From the NCBI RefSeq assembly GCF_017348835.2, contig NZ_CP071375.1: 64,000 nt of DNA, one strand, 5' to 3'. Source of the DNA: Escherichia coli (lineage in GTDB: Bacteria > Pseudomonadota > Gammaproteobacteria > Enterobacterales > Enterobacteriaceae). How positions within the stretch are numbered: position 1 is the stretch's first letter; each line of letters opens with the position of its first letter. Shown here piece by piece: positions 44,801-47,800 of the stretch. A program made the position numbers.

Positions 44801-47800
44801 AAGGCAGTCCACCAGTATCACGTTTTCCTGATGAATATTCAGTGGGAAACGCGCACCAATAATCAGTACGTCATCACACAAACCACAGCTCAGCTCATCA
44901 AGGGCGTTCTTTACCTCGGCTTTATTGCTGGCGAAGCGAAGAAGTAGATGTTTTTGATGCTGGCTGAGATGTTTTTCCAGAGCGTAAAGATAACCGGTGG
45001 TCTGATTAATGTTTTCCTGAGCACAAATTACACCGATACAGCCCGTAGATTGCGTCAGCAGTGACTGCGCAATGACATTGGGACGATAGTTTAGCTCTTC
45101 GACGGCTTTCAATACCGCGAGACGGCTGGCTTCTTTAACACCACGCGATCCGCTCAACACCCGAGAAACCGTCGCTTTTGAAACGCCAGCCAAACGCGAT
45201 ACATCATTGATAGTAGACATCATTCTCCCCTGACAGAGCGGCCCTGGCTCCCACAATCCTGAATTCCTGTTGGCTTAAATATTAGCCGTTCGCAGTATAA
45301 CTGTTTCCGTTTTCTAATGGAAACCGATTTTCCATGGCATCTCAAAACTGAGCTAATAATGATAAAAATGTGAACAGAATCGAAATAATAACGCGACTTT
45401 ATAGCGAAATCTGATAGCCGTTACAGTTTATGTTTCCATGAATGGAAACCGGTTTCCAAATGATATCAAATCAATTGCGAAATAGATTTTTACATTCAGA
45501 GGATGTGTCAGATGGTCAGGATTATGTTGTGTTGCTCTGCGGGGATGTCAACCAGTCTGCTGGTGAAAAAAATGGTTGAGGCCGCAGAAAGCAGAGAGCT
45601 ACCGGTAGAGATAGATGCCTACGGAGTTTCCGAATTTGATATTCAGTTTCCAAAATATCAGGTGGTGCTACTCGGACCGCAGGTAAAGTATATGTTAAAC
45701 ATGCTCGCAGAAAAGGCCGCCCCCCAGGGAATACCCGTAAAAGCCATTGATATGGCGGACTACGGAATGCAACGGGGTGACAAGGTGCTGGATTACGCTC
45801 TGTCGCTCATTGCAGCGACACATTAGAAAGGTGTCATTATGAGTTCGTTATATCAATCAATGGTAGCCGTTATTGAACAATCCATCACACCGCTTGCCGG
45901 GAAGCTGGGGCAGCAAAAATATGTGATTGCCATCCGGGACGGTTTTACTGCCGCTCTACCGTTTATGATCATCGGTTCGTTTATGCTGGTGTTCATTTTC
46001 CCACCGTTTTCGGCTGAAACAACCAACAGTTTTGCCCGAGGCTGGCTGGATTTCTCCGCCACCTACCGTGAACAGCTAATGTTGCCATTTAACCTCAGTA
46101 TGGGAGTGATGACTTTCTTCATCTCAGTAGGAATCGGTGCCAGCCTTGGGCGACAGTTTAATCTCGATCCGATTATGTCTGGCTTGCTGGCATTTATGGC
46201 ATTTTTACTGGTCGCAGCGCCTTACGCTGACGGCAAAATATCGACTCAATATCTTTCCGGGCAAGGTATTTTCACTTCGCTGATTACCGCGATTTATGCC
46301 ACTCGTGTATACGCCTGGTTAAAACAACACAACGTGACAATCCGCTTACCCAAAGAAGTCCCTACCGGGGTGGCGCGTTCCTTTGAGATCCTTATCCCGG
46401 TTCTGGTGGTCATTGCTACGCTACACCCACTGAATCTGTTTATTGAAGCCCAGACTGGAATGATTATTCCTGAGGCGATCATGCATCTTTTAGCGCCACT
46501 GGTCTCTGCCTCTGATTCTCTGCCTGCAATTCTGCTGTCTGTTCTGATGTGTCAGATTTTCTGGTTCGCAGGTATTCATGGTTCACTGATTGTAACAGGC
46601 ATCATGAATCCCTTCTGGATGGCAAACCTGTCGGCAAATCAGGCAGCTCTTGCCGCTGGCGCAGCACTTCCTCACGTTTATCTGCAAGGTTTTTGGGATC
46701 ACTACCTGCTGATTGGCGGCGTCGGCTCGACGCTACCGCTGGCGTTCTTGCTGTTACGCAGCCGTGTTGCTCACTTGCGTACCATCGGAAAAATGGGCGT
46801 TGTCCCCAGTTTTTTCAACATCAATGAGCCTATTCTGTTCGGTGCGCCGATCATCATGAATCCGATGTTGTTTATCCCGTTCGTTTTCGTGCCAATTATT
46901 AACGCCATCCTGGCCTATACCGCGACCAGACTGGGCTGGCTGGCACAGGTTGTCTCATTAACGCCATGGACCACACCTGCTCCAATTGGTGCCTCCTGGG
47001 CTGCCAACTGGGCACTTAGCCCGGTAGTGATGTGCATTATCTGTATGGTGATGTCGGCGCTGATGTACCTCCCATTCTTGCGCGCCTATGAACGCTCATT
47101 GCTAAAAAGCGAAGAACAAAAAGCGCAGGATACCGTCTCCGTGGCCAATGCAGCCCGTAGCAACTCATAATGAATCAAGGAGTAAGAACAATGAGATACC
47201 GTTTTCCCAACAACTTCTGGTGGGGGAGTGCCTGCTCTGCGCTGCAAACCGAAGGGGATAGTCTGAACGGCGGCAAAAGCCAAACCACCTGGGATGTATG
47301 GTTCGAGCGCCAGCCAGGCCGCTTCCATCAAGGTATTGGCCCGGCGAACACATCAACCTTTTATCAACACTGGCAACAAGATATTGCTCTGCTGAAACAG
47401 TTAAAACATAACAGTTTTCGCACCTCGTTAAGCTGGTCTCGCCTGATACCAGACGGTACTGGTGACGTAAATCCTGAAGCGGTGGCGTTCTATAACAATG
47501 TCATCGACGAGCTGCTGGCGCAGGGCATCGCACCGTTTATCACCTTGTTCCACTTTGATATGCCGATGGTGATGCAGGAAAAAGGTGGCTGGGAGAGTCG
47601 GGAAGTCGTAGAAGCTTTTGGTGAATATGCCCGTACCTGCTTTGAACTGTTCGGCAACAGAGTGAAGCACTGGTTTACCTTTAACGAACCGATTGTGCCG
47701 GTAGAGGGCGGTTATTTATATGACTTCCACTATCCGAACGTTGTTGATTTTAAACGTGCTGCGACAGTGGCTTACCATACCGTTCTTGCGCACGCCACGG

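What the first reader, a model, noticed from the sequence alone, without database searches (positions are those of the whole stretch)
45221..45502. Divergent control region with a perfect 16-bp palindrome and a degenerate second copy: candidate operators for the LacI-family repressor
tggaaaccggtttcca (45443-45458) is a perfect palindrome with a central CG, the usual LacI/GalR operator architecture. An imperfect copy tggaaaccgattttcca lies at 45318-45334, and overlapping inverted repeats (tttccatgaatggaaa) surround it. Two operators about 125 bp apart allow repressor looping over the divergent promoters. The inducing sugar is unknown; the ChbA-like IIA and GH1 enzyme point to a beta-glucoside or cellobiose-type substrate.
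Basis: partly seen in the sequence, partly recalled or inferred. Interest (0 to 1): 0.45.

Follow-up and report, generated by a model that had tools for sequence, protein, structure and literature searches.

The report
Repressor binding sites, beta-glucoside operon
The two palindromes are very likely the DNA sites where a neighbouring LacI-type repressor switches off a sugar-uptake operon and its own gene; this is an ordinary arrangement, well preserved across enteric bacteria.

Summary
TGGAAACCGGTTTCCA (45443-45458, "O1") is a perfect 16-bp palindrome. TGGAAACCGATTTTCCA (45318-45334, "O2") is a 17-bp copy with one extra central base. Both lie in the 291-bp gap between a LacI-family regulator gene (44264-45220, minus strand) and a PTS IIB-IIC-GH1-IIA-porin operon (45512-50466).

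One such palindrome in 64 kb is not rare: 3 were seen and 1.2 are expected. The real evidence is comparative. In 69 orthologous loci from about 25 enterobacterial genera, both sites sit at the same positions with invariant TGGAAA/TTTCC arms, while neighbouring bases drift. O2 is always the 17-bp form.

O2's left arm coincides with the -35 of a 100 %-conserved promoter for the regulator gene. O1 abuts the only conserved -10 (TATGAT; AATGAT in E. coli) for the operon. The best model is simple steric repression of the operon plus autoregulation, with two CRP-like sites in between.

The regulator's recognition helix is identical to AscG's, and the AscG-region palindromes share the core GAAACCGGTTTC. 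Looping is not supported: the regulator has no tetramerisation tail, and O1-O2 spacing varies by 3 bp. This is a new member of a known kind, of low interest.

One curiosity: the window carries a unique C-to-T change at 45422 in an invariant CRP-site base.

The parts
44264..45220 (-). LacI-family transcription factor gene (318 aa; NCBI WP_000104282.1)
   Evidence: Pfam LacI HTH PF00356 at 67.6 bits and Peripla_BP_3. It falls below the cut-off of every named NCBIfam equivalog. The DNA-binding domain has 44 of 58 residues invariant in 69 orthologues.
45294..45299 (-). Predicted -10 hexamer TATACT of the regulator's own promoter
   Evidence: All six columns are 100 % conserved in 70 loci. It is the best minus-strand promoter in the alignment-averaged sigma-70 scan, at a mean of 9.9 bits, and was also found by the consensus scan. 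No transcription-start data exist.
45318..45334 (.). O2: 17-bp pseudo-palindrome TGGAAACCGATTTTCCA, with arms TGGAAA/TTTCCA and a 5-bp centre. Its left arm (45318-45323) is the predicted -35 TTTCCA of the regulator promoter.
   Evidence: Present in all 70 loci, always as a 17-mer, 91-101 bp from the regulator's ATG in 68 of 70 (63 bp in 2 Pantoea loci with a deletion nearer the ATG).
45369..45384 (.). CRP-like site 1: TGTGA-N6-TCGAA (centre 45376.5)
   Evidence: GTGA and ATC are 90-100 % conserved. It lies 41 bp from site 2 in 60 loci. In E. coli alone it is not above chance.
45410..45425 (.). CRP-like site 2: TCTGA-N6-TTACA (centre 45417.5). Orthologues have T(T/A)TGA-N6-TCACA. Base 45422 is a T found only in this window.
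   Evidence: TGA and TCACA are 90-100 % conserved. The centre is exactly 33 bp from the O1 centre in 68 of 68 loci. The unique SNP is shown.
45443..45458 (.). O1: perfect 16-bp palindrome TGGAAACCGGTTTCCA. In most orthologues it extends to the 18-bp form A-...-T.
   Evidence: Columns 45442-45448 and 45450-45457 are 100 % conserved in 70 loci, while the flanks at 45430-45441 are 40-60 %. The site ends 51-57 bp before the IIB ATG, except in four of the eight Yersinia loci that carry the 57-bp duplication (76-77 bp).
45459..45464 (+). Best conserved -10 candidate for the PTS operon (AATGAT here; TATGAT in 93 % of loci), abutting O1
   Evidence: Highest plus-strand score in the alignment-averaged scan, with a mean -10 score of 5.75 bits and no conserved -35. 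In E. coli it scores 3.1 bits, against 6.5 bits with the consensus T. An alternative is TCAAAT at 45466-45471 with the O1 left arm as -35.
45512..50466 (+). Regulated operon: PTS IIB (45512-45826), IIC (45839-47170), GH1 phospho-beta-glycosidase (47191-48588), IIA (48585-48887), LamB-type carbohydrate porin (49087-50466)
   Evidence: Family hits are, and annotation. The same gene order occurs in most of the 69 orthologous loci.

Best explanation
O1 and O2 are the operators of the divergently encoded LacI-family repressor.

Proposed mechanism:
- A repressor dimer binds O1, the perfect palindrome. O1 lies inside the RNA-polymerase footprint of the PTS-operon promoter: it spans about -28 to -13 if the -10 is AATGAT/TATGAT, or covers the -35 if the -10 is TCAAAT. 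Binding there blocks transcription of IIB-IIC-GH1-IIA-porin.
- A second dimer binds O2. Its left arm is the -35 of the regulator's own promoter, which gives negative autoregulation.
- O2's conserved extra central base pair probably makes it the weaker site, as the natural lac O1 is weaker than the symmetric lac operator. Some repressor would therefore always be made.
- The phosphorylated beta-glycoside made by the PTS (a cellobiose-6-P-like compound) is the likely inducer.
- Two CRP-like sites in rigid register with O1 probably add catabolite control.

Shown here: the sequences, their positions, their conservation, the conservation of the regulator's DNA-binding domain, and the family assignments. 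Inferred: binding, promoter and transcription-start positions, relative affinities, the inducer and the role of CRP.
For: - Exact palindrome with a central CG and the core G.AA.CG.TT.C in the gap beside a LacI-family gene.
- Both sites are present in all 69 orthologous loci from about 25 genera, with invariant arms inside a poorly conserved background.
- The motif occurs nowhere else in 1.09 Mb of flanking DNA from 79 loci. The only two matches in the 64-kb window are these.
- The 100 %-conserved TATACT, with the O2 arm TTTCCA as -35, is the top minus-strand promoter. The top conserved plus-strand -10 abuts O1.
- The regulator's HTH and hinge are invariant in 69 orthologues, matching the invariant half-sites.
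- The hinge Leu in YRPNVIAQSL aligns with CcpA's YRPNAVARGL. This fits a central CpG operator.
- The recognition helix AGVSKATVSRVLSG is identical to that of AscG and CelR. The K-12 ascG-ascF gap carries GTGACCGGTTTCAC and TGAAACCGGTTTCT, which share the same 12-bp core.
Against: - No binding, transcription-start or expression data exist for this locus.
- A single 16-bp palindrome is expected by chance in 64 kb.
- The E. coli -10 candidates are weak.
- The CRP-like sites fall at about -53 and -94 relative to the best -10. The -53 position is not canonical. Canonical -61.5 and -102.5 positions would require a poor -10 with C at -11.
- The lower affinity of O2 is an analogy, not a measurement.
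Confidence: 0.8

Rival explanations
1. One reading: the two operators work together. One repressor oligomer binds both and loops the roughly 125 bp between them over the divergent promoters, as LacI or GalR do.
For: There are two operators on one short region. The centre-to-centre distance of 124.5-127.5 bp in 61 of 70 loci is close to 12 helical turns. Some LacI/GalR proteins loop without the LacI tail (GalR repressosome; several chimeras; PMC3505978).
Against: The protein is 318 aa, and alignments to LacI stop near residue 265, so it has no C-terminal tetramerisation helix. Spacing varies by 3 bp, about 100 degrees of twist, and all of that variation lies in the O2-to-CRP1 segment, while CRP1-CRP2-O1 is rigid. 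One Pantoea locus has 202.5 bp. Each operator already overlaps its own promoter.
Confidence: 0.15
2. The sites are mainly bound by another LacI-family protein of the host, for example AscG, which has the same recognition helix, rather than by the neighbouring regulator.
For: The HTH is identical in AscG and CelR. The same GAAACCGGTTTC core is found in the K-12 ascG-ascF gap.
Against: The sites travel with this regulator gene in every one of 69 loci across about 25 genera. The outer bases differ from the AscG-type half-site, TGGAAAC against TGAAAC. Autoregulatory placement on the regulator's own promoter points to the cognate protein. Cross-talk as an extra effect is not excluded.
Confidence: 0.04
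3. The palindromes are chance features, or act at the RNA level as hairpins in a leader or as terminators.
For: One or more perfect 16-bp palindromes are expected per 64 kb.
Against: Invariance across 70 loci contrasts with drifting flanks. Variable positions (45449 C/A/T; 45458 A/G) change without compensating changes at their partners, 45452 and 45443, which does not fit RNA pairing. There is no loop, no T-run and no terminator-like site. There is no Rfam match.
Confidence: 0.01

Closest known systems
AscG and the ascG-ascFB divergent region of E. coli K-12 (LacI family; beta-glucoside/cellobiose PTS)
   Same: A divergent repressor gene and a PTS plus phospho-beta-glucosidase operon. There are two palindromic sites in the gap. 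The recognition helix AGVSKATVSRVLSG is identical and the 12-bp core GAAACCGGTTTC is the same. That AscG binds such boxes is recalled from Ishida et al. 2009 (J Bacteriol), which was not held in the library.
   Different: Overall identity is only 27 %, so this is a different orthologous group. The half-site is TGGAAAC rather than TGAAAC. The transporter is a split Lac/Chb-type IIB+IIC+IIA with a porin, not a Glc-type IIBC. The GH1 is closest to Gram-positive 6-phospho-beta-glucosidases.
LacI with lac O1 and the symmetric operator
   Same: HTH plus hinge-helix repressor, central CpG, one ideal even palindrome and one site with an extra central base pair, CRP site upstream, and an auxiliary operator about 100 bp away.
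   Different: There is no tetramerisation tail. The second operator sits on the repressor's own promoter, whereas lacI is not autoregulated in that way. Operator positions relative to the start are only predicted.
GalR/GalS at gal (two operators, HU-dependent repressosome)
   Same: A dimeric LacI-family protein and two 16-bp CG-centred operators 113 bp apart flanking CRP-dependent promoters (general knowledge; PMC3505978).
   Different: Here each operator overlaps a different divergent promoter. No evidence was found for dimer-dimer contact or HU dependence.
RegPrecise LacI-family regulogs for beta-glucoside/cellobiose use in Enterobacteriales (CelR, CelR2, BglR, AscG, and the unnamed-function 'PtsR' Ent638_0983)
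   Same: In-silico regulons of one local operon, with 2 sites per genome and a predicted sugar-phosphate effector (PMC4052901).
   Different: This regulator is 25-30 % identical to the CelR, AscG and BglR sequences given there. Whether it equals 'PtsR' could not be checked, because that sequence lies beyond the stored part of the supplement.
E. coli bgc operon (bgcEFIHA with GntR-type BgcR), recalled from Neelakanta et al. 2009
   Same: An accessory E. coli island with Lac-type IIB/IIC/IIA, a porin and a phospho-beta-glucosidase.
   Different: The regulator family (LacI rather than GntR), the gene order and the chromosomal site differ. This comparison is from memory only. Search one search found no paper describing this locus.

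Membership tests
LacI/GalR repressor-operator pair | The adjacent gene encodes a protein with an N-terminal LacI-type HTH and a periplasmic-binding-protein-like effector domain | tested here: met
   PF00356 at 67.6 bits (cut-off 27) and PF13377 at 42.2 bits. LacI-family NCBIfam hits all fall below the equivalog cut-offs.
LacI/GalR repressor-operator pair | The operator is an even 14-20 bp palindrome with a central CG and the core G-AA-CG-TT-C | tested here: met
   O1, TGGAAACCGGTTTCCA, fits exactly. O2 keeps both arms but has one extra central base, as natural lac O1 does.
LacI/GalR repressor-operator pair | A hinge-helix leucine that can insert at the central CpG | tested here: met
   YRPNVIAQSL (Leu54) aligns with CcpA's YRPNAVARGL and is invariant in 69 orthologues. 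Its role is inferred from PurR, LacI and CcpA structures (general knowledge).
LacI/GalR repressor-operator pair | The site is conserved upstream of the orthologous regulated genes and co-occurs with the regulator | tested here: met
   70 of 70 loci carry both sites at fixed positions, and there are no hits elsewhere in 1.09 Mb.
LacI/GalR repressor-operator pair | The operator overlaps or lies just downstream of the regulated promoter | tested here: inconclusive
   Predicted promoters place O2 on the -35 of the regulator gene and O1 against the operon -10. No transcription-start data exist.
LacI/GalR repressor-operator pair | Protein binding to the site, relieved by a small-molecule effector | not testable with these tools
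   Needs EMSA or footprinting and inducer assays.
LacI-type tetramer DNA looping | C-terminal leucine heptad tetramerisation segment | tested here: not met
   The protein is 318 aa, against 360 for LacI. Alignments to LacI chains cover query residues 3-265 only, and the best PDB relatives are dimeric CcpA proteins.
LacI-type tetramer DNA looping | Operator-operator spacing held in helical phase | tested here: inconclusive
   Spacing is 124.5 bp in 13 loci, 125.5 in 31, 126.5 in 16 and 127.5 in 1. It is 202.5 bp in one Pantoea locus, and Yersinia has a third copy. The variation lies between O2 and CRP1.
AscG orthologous group | Orthology to E. coli AscG | tested here: not met
   27 % identity to AscG of Enterobacter sp. 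638; 29-30 % to CelR.
AscG orthologous group | Same recognition helix and the same operator core | tested here: met
   AGVSKATVSRVLSG is identical. GAAACCGGTTTC is present in the K-12 ascG-ascF gap.
CRP-activated promoter | A TGTGA-N6-TCACA site | tested here: inconclusive
   The window has two sites with 2 mismatches each, which is not above chance (32 found against 27 expected). However, GTGA and TCACA are 90-100 % conserved, and the spacings are fixed at 41 and 33 bp.
CRP-activated promoter | Site centred near -41.5, -61.5 or a further in-phase position | tested here: inconclusive
   The centres are at about -53.5 and -94.5 for the TATGAT -10, or at -61.5 and -102.5 for the poor TCCAAT -10. 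The transcription start is unknown.

The most novel reading that the evidence does not exclude
The window's strain carries a natural regulatory mutation. The C-to-T change at 45422 is unique among 70 orthologous loci. All 25 island-carrying complete E. coli genomes, including the two otherwise-identical strains, show at least one mismatch to the window over the control region. The base was verified directly as C only in PE164 and in the one E. coli locus of the alignment.

The change destroys the invariant C of the CRP-like TCACA half-site and at the same time creates a -10-like TACAGT, 18 bp after TTTATA. The promoter score rises from 4.2 to 7.9 bits. This new promoter would lie upstream of O1, which would then be centred near +16, as lac O1 lies downstream of its start. 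The change could convert a weak, CRP-dependent and semi-cryptic promoter into a CRP-independent but still repressor-controlled one. That would resemble the activating mutations known for the cryptic bgl, asc and chb systems of E. coli.

A second open point is the universally conserved +1-bp spacing of O2, which may be a deliberately weakened autoregulatory operator.
Probability: 0.12. Interest if true: 0.45.

Novelty: new member of a known kind. Interest (0 to 1): 0.25.

Why it matters
The result gives a testable operator motif, ATGGAAAC-CGGTTTCCAT, and a promoter map for an uncharacterised LacI-family regulator. That regulator controls a beta-glycoside PTS operon common in Enterobacter, Citrobacter, Yersinia, Serratia, Pantoea and related genera, but present in only 25 of 5426 complete E. 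coli genomes.

It allows correct regulon annotation across these genera. It suggests possible cross-talk with AscG. It also offers a clean natural pair of operators, 16 bp and 17 bp, for studying how central spacing tunes LacI-family affinity. It does not change any concept of gene regulation.

Tried and rejected
- **Rfam.** A scan of 45100-45650 at E up to 1 found nothing, so an RNA element was rejected.
- **Terminators.** The terminator scan found none.
- **Extra arm tttccat (45434-45440).** It is not conserved and was rejected as part of the operator.
- **Other 16-bp palindromes.** GCGCAACCGGTTGCGC (12806) and CCAGAACCGGTTCTGG (13901) lie inside the xanP coding sequence and were treated as chance.
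- **Distant regulator homologues.** Loci from Psychromonas, Tolumonas, Oscillospiraceae and Paenibacillus (27-32 % identity) show no similar palindrome upstream, so the motif cannot be traced beyond the orthologous group.
- **Literature.** The exact motif appears in no held paper. Searches for AscG operators and for bgc/bgcR gave no description of this locus. The AscG paper was not held. The RegPrecise 'PtsR' sequence was not in the stored supplement.
- **Fitting the CRP-like sites to canonical distances.** No single -10 satisfies both a good hexamer and a -41.5 or -61.5 position. This is left open.
- **TTGATA/TTGACA at 45411-45416 as a -35.** Rejected, because no conserved -10 follows at 16-18 bp.
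Full report
**1. The observation**

The sequence read shows tggaaaccggtttcca at 45443-45458. It is a perfect 16-bp palindrome with a central CG. tggaaaccgattttcca is at 45318-45334 and is the same sequence with one extra central base. The centres are 124.5 bp apart. tttccatgaatggaaa exists at 45434-45449, overlapping the left arm of the perfect palindrome.

A perfect 16-bp palindrome is not rare on its own. The window has three, and 300 dinucleotide shuffles give a mean of 1.2. 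With up to three mismatches the motif matches only these two places in 64 kb, against 0.29 expected. Statistics within the window are therefore only suggestive. The strong evidence is comparative (section 3).

**2. Context**

The window is Escherichia coli. It differs from strain PE164 by three SNPs and three one-base indels in 50 kb.

The sites lie in the 291-bp gap (45221-45511) between two transcription units:
- A LacI-family regulator gene at 44264-45220 on the minus strand.
- An operon on the plus strand encoding PTS IIB (45512-45826), IIC (45839-47170), a GH1 enzyme (47191-48588), IIA (48585-48887) and a LamB-type porin (49087-50466).

The cluster sits between adeD and uhpT. It is present in only 25 of 5426 complete E. 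coli genomes.

**3. Comparative evidence**

A scan of one genome per species found the regulator at 76-93 % identity in Citrobacter, Enterobacter, Lelliottia, Leclercia, Kosakonia, Yersinia, Buttiauxella, Erwinia, Serratia, Pantoea, Cedecea, Siccibacter and others. It nearly always faces the same operon.

In 69 orthologous gaps plus the window:
- **O1.** It is always present, ending 51-57 bp before the IIB ATG, except in four of the eight Yersinia loci that carry the 57-bp duplication, where it ends 76-77 bp before. The form is a-TGGAAA[C/A]CGGTTTCC[A/G]-t. Columns 45442-45448 and 45450-45457 are invariant, while the 12 bp to the left are only 40-60 % conserved.
- **O2.** It is always present, 91-101 bp from the regulator's ATG in 68 of 70 loci (63 bp in two Pantoea loci that have a deletion nearer the ATG). 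It is always a 17-mer, a-TGGAAACCG[A/G][T/A]TTTCC[A/G]-t.
- **Specificity.** The motif is absent from the other 1.09 Mb of the 79 loci.
- **Type of constraint.** Variable positions change without compensating partner changes. This fits a protein-binding site and not RNA pairing.

**4. Promoters**

A sigma-70 weight-matrix scan averaged over the alignment gives one outstanding minus-strand promoter. Its -10 is TATACT at 45299-45294, with all six columns invariant. Its -35 is TTTCCA at 45323-45318, 18 bp upstream, and that hexamer is the left arm of O2. This promoter also appears in the simple consensus scan. O2 is therefore placed to repress the regulator's own gene.

On the plus strand the best conserved -10 is TATGAT at 45459-45464 (AATGAT in E. 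coli). It directly abuts O1 and has no conserved -35. The runner-up is TCCAAT/TCAAAT at 45466-45471, with the O1 left arm TGGAAA as -35. In either case O1 lies within about -36 to -13 of the operon promoter, so a bound repressor would exclude RNA polymerase. No transcription-start data exist, so these positions are inferences.

**5. CRP-like sites**

Two blocks between the operators resemble CRP sites:
- TGTGA-N6-TCnnA at 45369-45384.
- T(T/A)TGA-N6-TCACA at 45410-45425.

In E. coli alone they are not above chance. Their strong halves are nevertheless 90-100 % conserved. Their geometry is also rigid: the second site is exactly 33 bp from the O1 centre in 68 of 68 loci, and the two sites are 41 bp apart in 60 loci. 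By contrast, the O2-to-CRP1 distance varies from 50.5 to 52.5 bp.

Relative to TATGAT the centres fall near -53.5 and -94.5. Relative to TCCAAT they fall at -61.5 and -102.5. Neither combination is fully canonical, so catabolite control is probable but its geometry is unresolved.

**6. The regulator**

Its first 58 residues are 97 % conserved, with 44 invariant positions that include the whole helix-turn-helix and the hinge YRPNVIAQSL. The hinge Leu aligns with that of CcpA. This fits a CpG-centred operator (general knowledge from PurR, LacI and CcpA complexes).

The protein is only 25-30 % identical to the RegPrecise CelR, AscG and BglR proteins, so it belongs to a separate orthologous group. 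Its recognition helix AGVSKATVSRVLSG is nevertheless identical to that of AscG and CelR. The K-12 ascG-ascF gap contains GTGACCGGTTTCAC and TGAAACCGGTTTCT, which share the 12-bp core GAAACCGGTTTC with O1. The prpR-prpB gap, which I recall as a second AscG target, is rich in TGAAAC. This independently ties the motif to this type of DNA-binding domain and raises the possibility of AscG cross-talk.

**7. Looping**

The protein is 318 aa and lacks the LacI C-terminal tetramerisation segment. Its closest solved relatives are dimeric CcpA proteins. O1-O2 spacing is 124.5-127.5 bp in 61 of 70 loci. It is 202.5 bp in one Pantoea locus that has a 76-bp insertion, and Yersinia species carry a 57-bp tandem duplication that adds a third operator.

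Some family members do loop without the tail (PMC3505978), so looping is not excluded. Nothing here requires it, because each operator has a local target.

**8. Substrate**

IIB, IIC and IIA match the lactose/cellobiose/chitobiose PTS family below equivalog cut-offs. The closest solved relatives of the GH1 enzyme are 6-phospho-beta-glucosidases of Gram-positive bacteria (4b3k and 5foo). It carries Ser in NWSW where non-phospho GH1 enzymes have Glu (this interpretation is from general knowledge of GH1). A beta-glycoside taken up as its 6-phosphate is therefore likely, and a sugar-phosphate inducer is plausible, as proposed for CelR and AscG (PMC4052901). None of this has been tested.

**9. Comparison with what is known, and verdict**

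This is a textbook LacI/GalR-type local regulon: a divergent autoregulated repressor, CpG-centred palindromic operators on the promoters, and CRP-like sites. It belongs to an orthologous group for which I found no publication. The exact motif is in no held paper, and a RegPrecise entry 'PtsR' could not be checked.

It is a new member of a known kind and of low general interest. It is useful for annotation and as a natural 16-bp against 17-bp operator pair.

**10. A curiosity**

Base 45422 is T in the window. It is C in the other 69 loci of the alignment, which include one other E. coli, and in PE164, where it is the only difference in an 18.3-kb comparison. Every one of the 25 island-carrying complete E. 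coli genomes shows at least one mismatch to the window across the 330-bp control region. This is consistent with the T being private to the window's strain, but the base was not read in the other 24 genomes.

The change removes the invariant C of the TCACA half-site. It also turns CACAGT into the -10-like TACAGT, 18 bp after TTTATA, raising the score from 4.2 to 7.9 bits. E. coli alleles also carry A instead of the consensus T at the first -10 position, 45459. Whether the SNP weakens or activates the operon is unknown.

Noticed in passing
window 45422: A single C-to-T difference from strain PE164. It is the only difference in an 18.3-kb comparison and one of three SNPs in 50 kb. It is unique among the 70 orthologous loci, and all 25 E. 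coli carriers show at least one mismatch to the window over the 330-bp control region. It hits the invariant C of the CRP-like TCACA and creates a -10-like TACAGT, raising the promoter score from 4.2 to 7.9 bits.
   Followed up: partly
window 45459: E. coli alleles have A where 93 % of orthologues have T. This is the first base of the best conserved -10 (TATGAT) and the +9 flank of O1. It lowers the -10 score from 6.5 to 3.1 bits, so the E. coli promoter may be intrinsically weak.
   Followed up: partly
L026, L038-L040, L042, L044, L045, L053 (Yersinia spp.), intergenic region: A 57-bp tandem duplication carries O1 together with the adjacent -10-like TAAGAT. These species therefore have three operators, with two O1 copies 57 bp apart.
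   Followed up: partly
L073 (Pantoea sp. AS-PWVM4), intergenic region: An insertion of about 76 bp between O2 and the first CRP-like site stretches O1-O2 to 202.5 bp, while the CRP1-CRP2-O1 block keeps its spacing.
   Followed up: no
L024, L027, L028, L034, L051, L052, L054 (Dryocola, Buttiauxella, Siccibacter, Cedecea): The orthologous operon lacks the GH1 gene: IIC is followed directly by IIA and the porin, and no GH1 hit occurs in the 15-kb locus. Both operators are still kept.
   Followed up: no
window 45304-45308: A moderately to highly conserved TTTCC sits in the spacer of the regulator promoter, 9 bp (45309-45317) from O2's TGGAAA. It could be an extra half-site or a promoter feature.
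   Followed up: no
window 45464-45472: The block TATC(C/A)AATC just downstream of the -10 candidate is 80-100 % conserved, with T66, C67, A70 and T71 invariant. That is more conserved than the -10 itself and lies outside the expected repressor footprint. Its function is unknown; it may be the start or discriminator region, or another site.
   Followed up: no
window 44034-50937: The regulator-operon cluster is an accessory island in E. coli, present in 25 of 5426 complete genomes. It lies between adeD and uhpT, bordered by a truncated yicS-family pseudogene and a second DUF1198 gene (50485-50937; the other copy is at about 40253-40705). In one other E. coli (L002) the porin side is followed by DUF1198 and then adeQ, a different arrangement.
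   Followed up: partly
window 12806-12821 and 13901-13916: Two further perfect 16-bp palindromes share an AACCGGTT centre (GCGCAACCGGTTGCGC and CCAGAACCGGTTCTGG). Both are inside the xanP coding sequence and are probably chance.
   Followed up: partly
window 39471-40137: A RelE/ParE-family toxin gene and an HTH antitoxin-like gene lie between nepI and the DUF1198 gene. They are annotated in PE164 and were not examined.
   Followed up: no
window 33800-34420: Two adjacent 288-bp stretches are about 81 % identical to each other, seen as secondary BLAST matches inside the large inverse-autotransporter gene iatC. This is an internal repeat.
   Followed up: no
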